From Nitrospirota bacterium (GTDB taxonomy: Bacteria > Nitrospirota > Thermodesulfovibrionia > UBA6902 > DSMQ01), in contig JACQXB010000009.1 of assembly GCA_016208965.1 (NCBI GenBank), positions 1-64,000 on the forward strand: DNA of 64,000 nucleotides, read 5' to 3'. Below, one piece after another: positions 43,201 to 52,200 of this stretch (within the stretch, counting starts at the first letter, position 1; every line of letters begins with the position of its first letter). The position numbers were made by a program.

Positions 43201-46200
43201 ATATGCAATGAGTGGGCTTGTTGACATCCGCCTTGCCATGATTATACTCGCTGGTTCTTTATTTGGCATCCAGCTTGGTGCGATTGGAACAACCTATGTA
43301 AAACCTTATATGATAAAACTCGTAATGGGGCTTATTATGGTGATTGTCCTCTTCAGCCGTGCATTGATGGTTCCGGTGTATATGTCACAACTCGGGCTGA
43401 TGCAGCCACTTGCCGAGGAGACCGTTAAGGTGCTAAAGAGCACCAGTTTTGCTATAATGATACTGGCTCTGCTCATCGGTGCATTTATTGTCCTGAAGGC
43501 AATGTGGCAGGGAATCAGGGTAGAGCGAAAAATGGCCAAAGAAGTTCTGAAACACAGTGAGGTGTAGCTATGGGAAGATATAGAAAGATACTGGTTGCAG
43601 TTGATAGTTCTGAGTCGAGTCTTCATGCATTGAAGGAATCCTTCAAGCTTGCTATGAATGAAGGAAGCTGGATAACGGTTGTTTCAGTTGTGCCTCCGTA
43701 TACAGGAGACCTTGATTTAGTTGCGGTAGGGAATATTATGGCATCCATGAGAAAGCCCTGTGAAGAGGCACTTAGGAAAGCTCAGGAGATAGCAACGGCA
43801 GAGAGGGCATCAATAAAGACTGCATGTGAAGAAGGCGAGCCGCATAGTGCAATAGTTGACCTTGCCCAGGCAGAAAATTTTGATTTAATAGTAATGGGGA
43901 GAAGAGGACTCGGGCGTATTGAAAAAATTCTTGTTGGGAGTGTAACCACAAGGGTTATTGGCTATAGCCCCATAGATGTAATCGTTGTTCCGAGGGATAC
44001 AGAGGTTGGCTGGCAGAATGTCCTTCTTACAACTGACGGCTCAAAATACAGTGAGGCAGCCTCAAAGAAGGCAATAGACCTTGCAAAATCCTATGGAGGA
44101 GTATTAAAGATTCTTTCTGTAGTGGATGTTCCCCCGGAGTTTTATGCAGAATCTCCAAAGACCGTTGATGATATGATTAACAAGGCAAAGGGATATGTTG
44201 AGGTTGTAAAGAAACAAGCGGAGGCAGCAAGGGTTAAGGCAGAGACCTTTGTGAGAGAAGGAGAGGCTTATCAGGTAATAACCAATATCGCAAAAGAACA
44301 AAATGCAGGTATTATTATAATGGGTTCACACGGAAGGACTGGATTAAAAAGACTCCTCATGGGAAGCGTCACAGAAAGGGTCATCGGACATTCCCCATGC
44401 CCTGTGCTTGTGGTTAAGGCGTAAGATTAAGCTGGAAGCCTGTCTTTTTTACAAAATCTAAATTGCCCTGCTTTTCGTTGTCTTTTATTAGCTTACACTT
44501 GAGTTTTTTTCTCTTTAATCCAAATAATGCATTTAGGAAACCACAGAGAACGCAGAGGTTTTTCTTAAATTAAATATTCTCTCTGTGTTACTCATTTTTT
44601 TCTCTGTGTTCTTGGTGGGTAATTGCATTTTCTGGGTTAATAGCTTCCTTCAACTTTTTTGCGAATGAACCTAAATTTTCATGCCAAGAGCAAAAATCCT
44701 ATTAAAAGCATTTATAATCTAATAGAATTTTTTTAATTGACATCATCATATCATTATAATATTATATTGTTGTGCACAATGAAGCCACATCCCTGCAAGA
44801 TAAAACAATAGACAGGTTCACTCAGGAAAAGCTCTATATTCAGCTTATGAGGATATTTCTGGAGGAAATAACATCAGGTATATGGCAATTGGGACAGCAG
44901 ATTCCAACAGAAGAAGAACTCTGCAAAAAATTCAATGTCAGCAAGATAACAGTTAGACAGGCAATAAATAATCTTGTCTCTGATGGTTACCTGTTAAAGA
45001 TTCAGGGTAAGGGGACATTTGTTAGTTCTGTCCTGCCTGTTGTGGGACTTGTCATGAAGACAAGGCTTACTGAAGAGATGTTTGGAAAAGAAGTGTACCT
45101 GAAAAGAGAGGTATTATTTAAAGGTATAAAAGACCCTCTTTCGGATATAACGACCCATTTAAAAACTGATGACAGGATATATTACATCCTTAGCAAAAAG
45201 ACAGGTAACGGGGAAACTGCATATATTGAGGAGGCATTTATTCCTTACAATATGCTCCCTTATATAGAGAAGCTTGACATCACCCACAGTTCCATTTACT
45301 CAGTTCTTCAGGAAAGAGGAGTTAAAAAGATATTCAAGATGATACAGACCATTGAGGTTGCGCAGGCATTGGGAGATTCGGCAAAGAATCTTGGCGTGGA
45401 CAAAGGCTCTCCTGTGCTTGTTGTTCACAGACTTTTTTTCAGCTCTGATAACACGCCCGTTGCTTATACAAAGATTCAAGGCAGAAGTGACAGATATAAA
45501 TTTCAAACAGAATTTGAGAGGATTAGGTAAAGACTGTGTTAGTGAACGGTATCAGTGTCGGTGAATGATGTATTTTTTTTACTGACACAAATCACTGACA
45601 CAGGCACTAAATAAAGGAGGAGGTGTTTATGTTGAATAACAAAAAGGTCAAAGACTTAATGGTTTCTATTTCAGATTATCCGCATATGAAACAAGATGAT
45701 TCTGTAAAAGATGCTTTCTTTATCCTAAGAAAAAATTTTAAAGAAGGCAGAGGTTACCGCAGTATCCTTGTGTTAAATGAAGAAAATCAATTAAGGGGAT
45801 TATTGTCAATGAGAGATTTGATTAGGGCAGTAGAACCGCGATTCTTAAAAATGTCACAGCCGCCTTCTTATCAGGGGCCTACTCAGGAATATCCTGCCTT
45901 AACCCTCATCTGGCAGGAGTTATTCTCTAAGGAGTGTAAGGAGGAAGCCAGAAAACCAGTTAAAGACATTATGACCCCTGTTAAACCTGCTGTTACACCT
46001 GATGATCCGATAGCTAAGGTTGTATATTTAATGGTAGAAACTAATTCCCGTGTTATTCCTGTAATTGATAATGATAAGGTGGTAGGGGTTGTCCGCCTTG
46101 TAGATGTTTTTAATGAAATCGCCAGTGTAGTTCTTGAAGATTAAATCTAAGTTAATACTACGGAGGGGTGACAATGACAAATGAAGCAGGACAAAAGGAG

Positions 46201-49200: not shown

Positions 49201-52200
49201 ACTACCATGCTCTGGATAGGCGGACAGATCACGACGGCAAATATCATTAAGGGGGTCTGGATTGCTTCTACGATTAATTTATTGGTTCCTCTTATCATAG
49301 CCACTGTTTTCTTTAAGTTCCTTAAGGGCGACGTTGTGCCTCCGGACAAAGTTAAAAATGGCGTCACCAACACCTCGCAGTTTGAAAAAAACCTCATGTT
49401 CTTTATGGGCATGGGTTCTTTAATCTTTGTTCCGATATTCAAGGCAGTTACGCATCTGCCCCCATACCTCGGCATTTTATTTGCCCTCGGTGTGCTTTGG
49501 ATGGTTGGTAATATCCTGCATCGCAACAAGCCTGCGGACGAGAAGGAACACCTCACTCTGACCAAAGCGCTCAGGCGTATTGATATGGCATCAGTGGTCT
49601 TCTTTATCGGTATCCTGCTTGCCGTGGCTACCCTGTCTGCAAATGGCATGCTCCCTGCATTGGCTAAGTGGCTCGATATTAAGCTCGGAAACCAAGCTCT
49701 GATCGTAATTATCATTGGTCTTGTTTCCGCCATCGTGGATAATATTCCTTTGGTGGCTGCTTCTATGGGCATGTATCCGCTTTCCCAATTCCCTACAGAC
49801 TCCTTTCTTTGGGAGTTCATGGCATACTGCGCAGGCACCGGTGGTTCAATCCTGATAATCGGTTCTGCTGCGGGCGTGGCTGCCATGGGGCTTGAAAAGA
49901 TAGAGTTCTTCTGGTATGCCAGGCGCATTGGGCCGCTTGCCTTTGCCGGGTATTTTGCCGGTGTGGCGGCATACATCATTCAGTACAATCTGCTGCACTG
50001 ACAGTAAAAACTAAGGGAGTATGAAAATATTATCAATAAAATCCCTCCTTCCCTCCCTTTGCTAAAGGGAGGATATGTTTTTCCCCTCTATTAAGAGGGG
50101 ATTAAGGGGTGTGTTACCCCTCTTTTCCAAAGAGGAGTAAGGGGAGATTTTCTAAGAAAGTGTATTTTCGGGTCAATCACAAGGAACCAATAACATAGAA
50201 TTTAAGAAACGCAACACCATGAGTCATGGCGCTATTTAATTAACACTTGAGAAAAAACACCCCGAACTATTAAACTTTAGCCGGATATGAAAATACGCGA
50301 AAAACTTCTCCTTGCCTTTGGGTTTTATATGTTTCTTGCCGTATTGGGAGGGCTTTTCACATATAATGAACTGCGTACAATTACAAAAAGATTAATCTTT
50401 GTTGAAATAGCGGATGATATAACCAACACCTTCCTTGAGGTAAGAAGACATGAAAAAAATTTCCTGCTGTTTAAGGATAAAGACAGCCTGCCAGAGCTTA
50501 AAAACAATCTTGGGATATTTAAAAAGAATATAGATAGCATTGAGATTGAAATAGTAAAGGAATTAGGTAGAAGTAACTATGAGATGATGAAAAAGGCAAT
50601 AGCTGAATATGAACATATGGTTAATAAAGTAGCAGAAGACTTCAAACTGCAGGATTCTATAGATACAATGAGGCTAAGGGCCCGGGAAATACAGTCTTTT
50701 ACCGAGACCTTTTCAAAGAAAGAAAGAGCAGATATAAACAAAAGGCTAAAATTGTCCTTCAACCTGCTTTCATTTGCACTTCTAACAGTTATAATACTGG
50801 GTGCAATTGTAAATATAAAACTTGCAAGGGGTATCGCAACACCGATAAGAAGGCTTGAAGAAATAACTAAAAAAATCGCAGCAGGAGACTTCTCGGTGCG
50901 TATTGAGATTAAGGGAAAGGATGAGATTGCATCTTTAGAGTCATCAGTTAATATAATGGAGGACAGGCTTCAGGATACAATGAGGGCTTTTGAATTTGCA
51001 ATAGAAAGACTGCACGAGAAACAGGCACAACTTGTGGAGACTGAAAAACTTGCCACTCTTGGAAAATTTGCTGCGGGTGTAGCACATGAAATCAATAATC
51101 CCCTTGCCATAATAAATGAAAAGGCAGGTCTAATAAAAGATGTTATTGAATTATCTGCTGACTTTCCGAATAGAGATAAATTTTTAAATATACTTAATTC
51201 AATCTCTGATAGTGTAAATCGCTGCCGGGTTATTACACATCGGATACTTGGATTTGCAAGGAAAACAGATGTTGCCACAGAGACCATTAACCTGAATAAT
51301 CTTATCGGAGAGGTTCTGGAATTCATAGAAAAAGAACTTTTGTTTAAAAGTATTCACCTTGAAATAAATTTAGCGGAAAATCTTCCGGAATTAGAGGGTG
51401 ACACAGTCCAGCTTGAACAGGTATTTCTGAACATCATAAAAAACGCAATTGACGCAGTGGAAAAAGGAGGGTTAATTAAAATTTCCACTAATATTAAAAA
51501 TGAAAATACTGTCAGGGCATTTATTGAAGACAATGGACATGGGATACCGGAGGGAATACTGAAGCATATCTTTGAACCTTTCTTTACAACTAAGGTGAGA
51601 GGAAAAGGAACAGGGCTCGGTCTTTCAATAACATACGGTATTATAAAACGGTTAGGCGGAGATATACTTGTCAAAAGCGAGGTAAATAAGGGGACGACTT
51701 TTACTGTGGAGATACCGGTAAAATCTGACCTGCCCAAAGAGGTTAATATATGACATCTGCAAAGATACTTATAGTAGATGACGAGGTGGAATTTGCATCC
51801 GTCCTTGCAGAACGACTTCAGCTGCGTGGTTATGATGCAAAGGCGGTATACTGCGCTGAAGATAGCTTTGCTATTGCCAAAAGCGACCCCCCTGATGTGA
51901 TATTGCTTGACCTAAAAATGCCGGGGATGAGCGGGATAGAAATACTCATGACCATGATTTGCTGGTTGCAAAAATCAAAGAAGCATTTATGGAAAAGGTT
52001 GAAAGGGCAATGACAGCAATTACATTTGCAGAAGAAGGAGATTTTAATACCGCACAGAAGATAATAAAAAAAGAGGAATAACCATCACCCTGTCATTCCC
52101 ACGAAAGTGGGAATCCAAAGGTTGTTATTTTAAAAAATATAGATTCCTGCTTTCGCAGGAATGACAGTATTTAATCCGATTAACAAGAAGGAGGGTATTA

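What a model noticed while it worked through the whole genome (the two positions that open the first line are those of the whole stretch)
46174..50001. Algal LCIB-type carbonic anhydrase wired to a DASS anion symporter and Na+/H+ antiporter
An LCIB/theta carbonic anhydrase gene lies between a DASS-family symporter and an NhaD-like antiporter. The trio is likely a sodium-driven bicarbonate uptake and conversion module for Wood-Ljungdahl autotrophs, with the antiporter recycling sodium. DASS proteins are not among the known inorganic-carbon transporters, so this would be a new bicarbonate transporter family.
Evidence so far: g00135 matches Chlamydomonas LCIB/LCIC at E 6e-43 with the C-R-D and H motifs kept; the antiporter is 48% identical to Arabidopsis NHD1. 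LCIB occurs in 33 of 151 class genomes. The DASS gene is directly upstream in 11 of 12 order loci (the other is cut) and 16 of 18 further class loci; an NhaD-like, other IT-family or Mrp-like antiporter gene follows in most. Passages of PMC5840216 do not mention anhydrase or NhaD, and those of PMC10880623 do not mention DASS; searches 67, 69 and 70 listed no such operon.
(Added by a program. Inside this text positions count along the whole contig: contig position 1 is position 1 of the stretch shown here. "Call 12" and the like, gene names such as g00115 and contig names such as C1 are that model's own, and its searches are not shown. The text may have been shortened before it was handed on; [...] marks where a part breaks off. 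The agent that wrote the report below was given it as the finding of a first reader that could run no searches.)

Follow-up and report, generated by a model that had tools for sequence, protein, structure and literature searches.

The report
Sulfate-reducer anion carrier recruits carbonic anhydrases
In sulfate-reducing bacteria, a membrane carrier thought to import sulfate sits beside a carbonic anhydrase gene, of the algal type here and of other types (one only predicted) in relatives, so its work is likely tied to bicarbonate and proton balance rather than to carbon fixation alone; this strain's carrier gene is broken.

Summary
In detail: GntR, CBS, DASS, LCIB and NhaD genes lie in one row, LCIB keeps all checked active-site residues, and this strain's DASS is frameshifted. 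The reading 'bicarbonate importer for Wood-Ljungdahl autotrophs' is only partly supported. The DASS clade follows sulfate reduction: 30 of 66 aprA-positive against 1 of 85 aprA-negative Desulfobacterota genomes, and 0 of 43 with acetyl-CoA synthase but no aprA. It resembles a published DASS-CBS-kinase sulfate-uptake cluster, and an intact copy occurs in a strain reported not to grow chemolithotrophically. New here: where LCIB is missing, a beta, iota or gamma-like anhydrase gene lies within 5.5 kb in 11 of 25 genomes, and the gamma-like family occurs in 11 of 31 DASS genomes against 0 of 49 others. Two loci place the DASS among CO2/bicarbonate-fixing enzymes. Best reading (0.45): sodium-driven sulfate import, with anhydrase and antiporter balancing protons. 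Rivals: bicarbonate import (0.22), sulfate/bicarbonate exchange (0.20). Nothing is assayed. The scan noted this operon twice before on other DNA (e1-2440778, e1-6943046).

The parts
44772..45530 (+). GntR/UTRA (HutC/PhnF-like) regulator, first gene of the likely operon; sigma-70-like site at 44737-44765 (11 of 12, consensus match only)
   Evidence: conserved upstream of CBS-DASS
45623..46144 (+). CBS-pair protein, the most constant neighbour of this DASS clade
46174..46405 (+). 5' piece of the DASS/SLC13 gene, ends after the 1-base insertion near 46380
46409..47668 (+). 3' piece of the DASS gene (419 aa), with one extra alanine in the first hairpin (3 extra bases near 46688)
47714..47861 (.). 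Dispersed palindromic repeat between DASS and LCIB (26 blastn hits in the genome, self-hit included); not specific to the module
47906..48622 (+). LCIB/theta-type carbonic anhydrase, intact; no obvious signal peptide in the N-terminus by eye
48712..50001 (+). NhaD-family Na+/H+ antiporter, intact
50287..51753 (+). HAMP sensor histidine kinase of the surrounding island
52661..54141 (+). TauE/TSUP permease and its small membrane partner, downstream part of the island
41374..44424 (+). Upstream island genes: small proteins, TauE/TSUP permease (42479-43567), tandem USP (43570-44424); preceded by a divergent kinase and sigma-54 regulator at 38322-41094

Best explanation
These genes are the Thermodesulfovibrionia version of a DASS-CBS-kinase gene island of sulfate reducers, and the module likely imports sulfate with sodium while the antiporter likely swaps that sodium back for protons and the predicted carbonic anhydrase likely balances cytoplasmic protons through CO2/bicarbonate. 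Shown: gene order, families, LCIB active-site residues, the DASS clade's confinement to genomes with aprA or dsrA in my samples, and repeated neighbourhood of other anhydrase or anhydrase-like genes. Inferred: co-transcription, sulfate as substrate, sodium coupling, anhydrase activity and direction. In this strain the DASS is frameshifted, so the module is probably decaying while LCIB and NhaD stay intact.
For: DASS clade in 30 of 66 aprA-positive and 1 of 85 aprA-negative genomes of a 151-genome Desulfobacterota sample; 0 of 43 acsB-positive aprA-negative; 5 of 18 aprA-positive acsB-negative (the 66 include two genomes with split or partial aprA and leave out six sub-cut-off hits). In Nitrospirota outside the class, 1 of 122 genomes; that genome and the one aprA-negative carrier both have dsrA. 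G000 has aprA and dsrA. In G282 the DASS lies about 10 kb from aprBA. Neighbours across both phyla are CBS, kinases, receivers, TauE, USP and a PEP-synthase-like gene, matching the DASS sulfate-uptake cluster of PMC11887813 (section 14 read). The DASS beside LCIB in G270 is that genome's only strong PF00939 hit, is identical to AIH04648.1 of Thermodesulfobacterium commune, and PMC5840216 lists one DASS for that species, HL41_08260 (supplement 1); that they are the same gene is my inference. No SulP was found in G000, G144, G018, G270 or G231. Dicarboxylate-binding motifs are altered: SNT to AHT and MNV, GSPP to GAAR with an invariant arginine. An antiporter-type gene follows in 38 of 49 loci.
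Against: No assay of any member; the sulfate role in both papers rests on annotation, expression and context. Kin are not independent, so the aprA correlation may partly reflect lineage. 155 of 201 class genomes lack this DASS although 188 of 201 have dsrA, so it is dispensable. Simple Na+/sulfate symport explains only loosely why up to four anhydrase folds sit beside it. G181 has PEP carboxylase, purE, CBS, DASS, 2-oxoacid oxidoreductase, SbtA, Sua5, purK, pyruvate carboxylase and beta-CA in one row, and G060 has purE, CBS, DASS, CO dehydrogenase and formate dehydrogenase, which points to carbon supply. All 9 LCIB genomes of the Desulfobacterota sample have acsB, and 3 of them lack aprA, dsrA and the DASS. 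The first sodium site is altered (N151 to H), so sodium coupling is not secure.
Confidence: 0.45

Rival explanations
1. Sodium-driven bicarbonate or carbonate import: the DASS would bring in inorganic carbon, the anhydrase would release CO2 for CO dehydrogenase, formate dehydrogenase and pyruvate synthase, and the antiporter would recycle sodium.
For: Carbon-enzyme clusters around CBS-DASS in G181 (SbtA 3.8 kb away) and G060. Theta, beta, iota and gamma-like genes beside the clade. LCIB in 9 of 9 genomes with acsB against 91 of 151 overall. Strain TK110, reported autotrophic by the Calvin cycle, has a DASS in the same 90% cluster. PMC10880623 section 11 says WL organisms lack known transporters and novel ones are not ruled out.
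Against: 0 of 43 acsB-positive, aprA-negative genomes carry the clade; 1 of 122 other Nitrospirota. Intact in T. yellowstonii, which did not grow chemolithotrophically. The 2 of 14 g47 genomes with RuBisCO lack DASS and LCIB. A cytoplasmic anhydrase beside an importer tends to leak CO2 (PMC10880623 section 11). No residue differs consistently between LCIB-linked and LCIB-free DASS in the four motif regions compared.
Confidence: 0.22
2. Sulfate/bicarbonate exchange: the DASS would swap sulfate for bicarbonate and the anhydrase would supply or remove the counter-ion. It would import sulfate in reducers (two bicarbonate are made per sulfate in organotrophic growth, textbook stoichiometry, recalled) and could run backwards in sulfur-disproportionating autotrophs.
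For: It is the only reading that accounts for both the confinement to aprA/dsrA genomes and the repeated anhydrase neighbours. DASS-LCIB (L032, L103-L105) and DASS-gamma-like (L123-L125) occur with no antiporter next to them. The first sodium-site asparagine is replaced by histidine and an invariant arginine sits at the substrate loop. DASS exchangers exist (PMC7553777 passages).
Against: By alignment position, the exchanger marks of LaINDY (Arg159, His392) are not seen, and the clade scores closer to VcINDY (E 1e-44) than to LaINDY (E 2.5e-23). The second sodium site looks intact. Na+/H+ antiporter genes follow in most class loci. PMC5840216 (introduction) reviews cation symport, not anion exchange, for sulfate uptake.
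Confidence: 0.2
3. The anhydrase serves the antiporters or housekeeping carboxylases and only shares an ion-homeostasis island with the DASS.
For: LCIB stays beside the Mnh operon after DASS loss in L075, L076, L078, L080 and stands alone in L073, L074, L130. The closest DASS (G155, 91%) has no LCIB. 10 of 46 DASS genomes in the class lack LCIB. In Desulfobacterota the 6 DASS-LCIB genomes have neither beta-CA nor the gamma-like gene (0 of 6 against 18 of 25), as expected for a housekeeping replacement. 14 of 25 LCIB-free loci show no anhydrase nearby, some cut by contig ends.
Against: The anhydrase gene is directly next to DASS or CBS-DASS for three folds (theta, iota, gamma-like), often with no antiporter. 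The gamma-like family is confined to DASS genomes (11 of 31 against 0 of 49). In the class 17 of 46 LCIB genomes, G000 included, also have a beta-CA.
Confidence: 0.13

Closest known systems
DASS-type sulfate transporter gene cluster of Desulfosarcina variabilis 3be13 and related sulfate reducers (PMC11887813; abstract, passages, section 14 and the one text supplement searched)
   Same: DASS with CBS proteins and many two-component genes, in sulfate reducers.
   Different: The text has no 'anhydrase' or 'antiporter' and the supplement search for LCIB, NhaD and DASS gave nothing (figures are not held). I could not compare Dvar_38230/38430 sequences. The GntR and LCIB genes are additions in Thermodesulfovibrionia.
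DASS group Ci of Marietou et al. 2018 (PMC5840216; part 1 of 10, passages, section 20, supplement 1)
   Same: Highly conserved clade in sulfate reducers with G258 kept and alanine at 260 (NaS1 numbering), as in the GAAR loop here; thermodesulfobacterial members; some members lie near sat-aprAB.
   Different: 'carbonic' and 'CBS' do not occur in the text. Its table lists no DASS for T. yellowstonii, though ACI21428.1 is one. The tree itself was not visible, so Ci membership is inferred.
Chlamydomonas LCIB/LCIC and diatom PtLCIB4 (theta-CA, PF18599; PDB 5k5w, 5b5x, 5b5y)
   Same: Fold (TM 0.80), Cys-His-Cys zinc ligands, Asp, and the His/Arg pair that by spacing equals His162/Arg194.
   Different: Stand-alone 238-aa bacterial protein in a transporter operon of an anaerobe without RuBisCO. 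The purified algal proteins showed no activity (PMC5876011 passage), so activity here is open.
SulP-beta-CA fusions and SbtA/BicA bicarbonate carriers
   Same: Anion carrier paired with an anhydrase (the fusions are recalled, from no call; SbtA, BicA/SulP, Chr, Cmp and DAC are listed in PMC10880623).
   Different: Unrelated carrier fold; 'DASS' does not occur in PMC10880623.
VcINDY, human NaS1 and LaINDY (solved DASS proteins)
   Same: Elevator-type DASS fold; the model matches NaS1, NaDC3 and VcINDY about equally (TM 0.76-0.81).
   Different: Both SNT motifs and the TM5 loop are changed; about 22% identity, so the fold does not tell the substrate.

Membership tests
LCIB/theta carbonic anhydrase | PF18599 domain and LCIB fold | tested here: met
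LCIB/theta carbonic anhydrase | Cys/His/Cys zinc ligands, Asp, and the His162/Arg194 pair | tested here: met
   C45, D47, H103, C127, H86, R117 invariant in 26 of 26; mapping to His162/Arg194 is by spacing in the 5k5w alignment; ligand roles recalled
LCIB/theta carbonic anhydrase | CO2 hydration activity | not testable with these tools
   no assay
DASS/SLC13 family | Family model and fold | tested here: met
   intact L065 protein passes TIGR00785 (199.6 bits, cut-off 198.6); fold; the window's 3' piece scores 187
DASS dicarboxylate/sulfate co-transporters (VcINDY, NaS1) | First SNT motif, which binds Na1 and substrate | tested here: not met
   AHT in 47 of 50 rows, SNT in 3 distant rows; role from PMC11584011 passages
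DASS dicarboxylate/sulfate co-transporters (VcINDY, NaS1) | Second sodium site (Thr and Asn of the outer hairpin) | tested here: met
   TNFIMN aligns with TEFASN; N410 invariant; alignment only
DASS exchangers (LaINDY type) | Arg159 and His392 as sodium surrogates | tested here: not met
   no Arg or His at those hairpin positions as judged through the VcINDY alignment; the direct LaINDY alignment was not printed
Sulfate-reducer DASS cluster (PMC11887813) / group Ci | DASS with CBS and two-component genes in sulfate reducers | tested here: met
Sulfate-reducer DASS cluster (PMC11887813) / group Ci | Orthology to Dvar_38430, HRM2_40290, TOL2_19470 | tested here: inconclusive
   sequences not available by name; indirect link through the T. 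commune gene
Sulfate-reducer DASS cluster (PMC11887813) / group Ci | Sulfate transport | not testable with these tools
   no assay here or in the passages read
NhaD antiporter | Curated family cut-off | tested here: inconclusive
   passes NF038006, below TIGR00775
Inorganic-carbon uptake system of Wood-Ljungdahl autotrophs | Distribution follows acsB or autotrophy | tested here: not met
iota carbonic anhydrase (neighbour in L117) | COG4875/3H51 family with C-terminal His-His-Ser-Ser | tested here: met
   3h51 E 6.8e-34, HHSS present; activity untested, also for 3H51
gamma carbonic anhydrase (3C8V-family neighbours) | Three metal-binding histidines on a left-handed beta-helix | tested here: inconclusive
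   3c8v 'putative acetyltransferase' E 6e-178, 1v3w E 4e-4; CcmM E 7.6e-6; H124, H150, H317, N297, Q299, E300 invariant in 11 of 11 but split over two repeats; Cam residue roles recalled

The most novel reading that the evidence does not exclude
The abundant DASS clade of sulfate reducers is a sulfate/bicarbonate exchanger served by a carbonic anhydrase that has been swapped among four folds (theta, beta, iota and a split-site gamma-like 3C8V family): sulfate in and bicarbonate out when reducing sulfate, reversed for carbon fixation in sulfur disproportionators. A further 0.22 goes to plain bicarbonate import by the same clade.
Probability: 0.2. Interest if true: 0.87.

Novelty: new variant of a known kind. 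Interest (0 to 1): 0.62.

Why it matters
The protein that carries sulfate into dissimilatory sulfate reducers has not been identified experimentally (PMC5840216 abstract), and no inorganic-carbon transporter is known in Wood-Ljungdahl organisms (PMC10880623 section 11). This clade is a candidate for either question, and intact copies exist in cultured thermophiles, so one liposome experiment with two labelled anions can decide. The anhydrase swapping also gives a testable function for the unannotated 3C8V family and for a bacterial LCIB closer to the green-algal than to the diatom proteins.

Tried and rejected
Class-level correlation with acsB (184 of 201) and dsrA (188 of 201) is uninformative because both are near universal. 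Beta-CA shows no exclusion with LCIB in the class (17 of 46 against 61 of 155) and no genome-level enrichment in DASS genomes (11 of 31 against 17 of 36). No RNA holder listed. Rfam found nothing in 38000-56000. Promoter and terminator counts are at chance level (11 against 12.8; 7 against 5.4). Fold search does not rank substrates. The DASS tree is the quick version only (careful search unfinished); it shows LCIB-free genes nested among LCIB-linked ones, and I ran no clade test. Downstream genes in L157, L195 and L206 that I suspected to be WL methyl-branch genes are V/A-type ATPase subunits. Weak LCIB-like hits in G118 and G124 (23-26%) lie elsewhere, next to secretion-type ATPase genes, and were left out of counts. 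Most beta-CA loci of the class (18 of 20 fetched) are not near the DASS. An iota-CA search in 5 of the 6 DASS genomes without any detected anhydrase found 1, on the aprA contig and not near the DASS. Alpha-CA and canonical gamma-CA were not searched. No complex prediction was run, since I do not claim binding. Paper searches listed no paper on a DASS-anhydrase operon (listings only; subscription journals are largely missing, and Jin 2016, Tarpgaard 2017 and Maltseva 2024 were seen only as cited by others).

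
Full report
Observation. The window carries GntR, CBS, DASS, LCIB and NhaD genes in one row on the + strand, inside a larger island of TauE permeases, USP proteins, kinases and receivers. LCIB matches Chlamydomonas LCIB at E 6.3e-43 and diatom PtLCIB4 at about 1e-15, folds like 5k5w (TM 0.80) and keeps C45, D47, H103, C127, H86 and R117 in 26 of 26 homologues. The DASS has one extra base near 46380 and three near 46688, present in contigs of three runs from one study that may be the source. 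The receiver gene at 51750 also looks shortened by a deletion, so the island seems to be decaying in this strain. Named relatives place the genome in Thermodesulfovibrionia; it has aprA, dsrA, acsB and a separate beta-CA, and no RuBisCO or SulP was found (genome 88% complete).

Conservation. In 201 class genomes, 46 have LCIB and 46 have the DASS clade, 36 both. DASS is directly upstream in 39 of 49 LCIB loci, and NhaD, an ArsB/MamN-like permease or an Mnh operon follows in 38. The core is CBS-DASS with a divergent PEP-synthase-like gene. LCIB is an accessory: the closest DASS (G155, 91%) lacks it, and DASS-NhaD and DASS-Mnh occur without it.

What the carrier follows. In a sample of 151 genomes from a second phylum, whose named members are Thermodesulfobacterium, Desulfobacterales, Desulfarculus and Desulfatibacillum, the clade is in 31 genomes and only 6 of them have LCIB. 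It occurs in 30 of 66 aprA-positive and 1 of 85 aprA-negative genomes, in 0 of 43 with acsB but no aprA, and in 5 of 18 with aprA but no acsB. In Nitrospirota outside the class it is in 1 of 122. Both exceptions have dsrA. Kin are not independent and many genomes are incomplete, so the p-values overstate; the pattern is the same in two phyla. The gene context matches the DASS-CBS-kinase sulfate-uptake cluster of PMC11887813 and probably group Ci of PMC5840216. The intact DASS-LCIB pair is identical to T. yellowstonii proteins, a species that did not grow chemolithotrophically, and the autotrophs of that genus are reported to use the Calvin cycle (PMC12501866). The 2 of 14 genomes of that genus with RuBisCO lack both genes, but the autotroph TK110 has the DASS. 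So 'for Wood-Ljungdahl autotrophs' fails.

What supports a carbon link. Among the 25 LCIB-free carriers of the second phylum, 11 have another anhydrase or anhydrase-like gene within 5.5 kb: beta-CA in 4 (L112, L113, L114, L120), an iota-CA directly downstream in 1 (L117), and a 3C8V-family beta-helix protein in 6 (L106, L107, L122, L123, L124, L125). On the quick tree these fall in about six separate places. With one or two such genes in a genome of 3-4 Mb, a hit in a 16-kb window is expected about 1% of the time (my estimate). The 3C8V family is in 11 of 31 DASS genomes and 0 of 49 others, chosen as all 36 aprA-positive non-carriers plus 13 of the 43 acsB-only genomes. It has three invariant histidines and a QEN motif split over two repeats; its anhydrase activity is a prediction. 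The 6 DASS-LCIB genomes have neither beta-CA nor 3C8V. In the class, none of the 12 LCIB-free DASS loci has an anhydrase inside the fetched window of up to 8 kb a side, but G155 and G181 have a beta-CA about 11 kb away. In G181 the CBS-DASS pair lies among PEP carboxylase, purE, purK, Sua5, pyruvate carboxylase, a 2-oxoacid oxidoreductase and SbtA; in G060 it precedes CO dehydrogenase and formate dehydrogenase.

The carrier itself. The first SNT motif is AHT, the second MNV, and the TM5 loop carries an invariant arginine at the place of VcINDY's second proline. This argues against a C4-dicarboxylate carrier and fits a small oxyanion (inference). The second sodium site looks intact and the first altered. 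The LaINDY exchanger marks are not seen. LCIB-linked and LCIB-free copies do not differ consistently in these motifs, so the whole clade probably has one substrate.

Mechanism. I put 0.45 on sodium-driven sulfate import with the antiporter returning sodium and the anhydrase handling the proton/bicarbonate balance, 0.22 on bicarbonate import, 0.20 on sulfate/bicarbonate exchange and 0.13 on a loose association. Exchange explains both main patterns best, but it runs against the reviewed symport physiology, the frequent antiporter neighbours and the missing exchanger residues. All substrate and direction statements are inferred.

Novelty. The DASS island is known; its coupling to anhydrases was not found in the paper searches named under Tried and rejected. 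The scan noted the LCIB operon twice before on other DNA, as unchecked notes that favour bicarbonate, and the sulfate cluster once. Figures of PMC11887813 and PMC5840216 were not visible and may show neighbouring genes.

Noticed in passing
L107:5358-6779, L123:2860-4308, L106:10485-13073, L122:12823-14247: 3C8V-family tandem beta-helix protein ('putative acetyltransferase') found only in genomes with this DASS clade (11 of 31 against 0 of 49); three invariant histidines split over two repeats suggest a gamma-CA-like site; in L106 it is fused to a periplasmic binding domain.
   Followed up: partly
L088 and L219 (G181:C19): A row of CO2/bicarbonate-using genes (PEP carboxylase, purE, 2-oxoacid oxidoreductase, SbtA, Sua5, purK, pyruvate carboxylase, beta-CA) with CBS-DASS inside it.
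   Followed up: partly
L086 (G060:C24): purE, CBS, DASS, CO dehydrogenase, formate dehydrogenase and 2-oxoacid oxidoreductase in one row.
   Followed up: partly
L031:8501-9871, L065:8720-10456: Uncharacterised ArsB/MamN-like IT permeases (456 and 578 aa, 43% alike), often with their own CBS or USP gene, follow LCIB as often as NhaD does; they could be the anhydrase's real partner.
   Followed up: no
L131, L132, L218: Anhydrases beside other IT permeases without the DASS next to them: IT-GDT1-LCIB in two genomes without aprA or dsrA, and beta-CA directly before an IT permease in G155.
   Followed up: partly
L157, L195, L206: DASS-LCIB is followed by a V/A-type ATPase operon in place of the antiporter, another possible ion pump.
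   Followed up: partly
L065:2500-5049 and relatives: A PEP-synthase-like protein (ATP-binding and phospho-histidine domains, no C-terminal PEP domain found) is divergent from GntR in most loci but was not found in G000; possibly a regulatory phosphotransferase.
   Followed up: no
window 51750-52130: Receiver gene fused out of frame to the tail of a later gene; relatives have a kinase-like gene and another receiver between them, which suggests a deletion.
   Followed up: partly
window 47714-47861 and about 50036-50073: Dispersed palindromic repeats; the first has 26 blastn hits in the genome, and both attract many unrelated contigs.
   Followed up: partly
window 54138-55381 (-): AbiEi/AbiEii type IV toxin-antitoxin pair at the end of the island.
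   Followed up: no
L095:7814-8611, L096:877-1737: Divergent LCIB-family gene (PF18599 E 4.8e-12, CLD for CRD) after secretion-type ATPase genes in family f15.
   Followed up: no
G038:C1:900257-901129: RuBisCO large-subunit gene with an internal stop; G022 has an intact one.
   Followed up: no
L091: In family f15 a distant DASS (45%, SNT kept) lies about 3 kb from acetyl-CoA synthase corrinoid genes.
   Followed up: no
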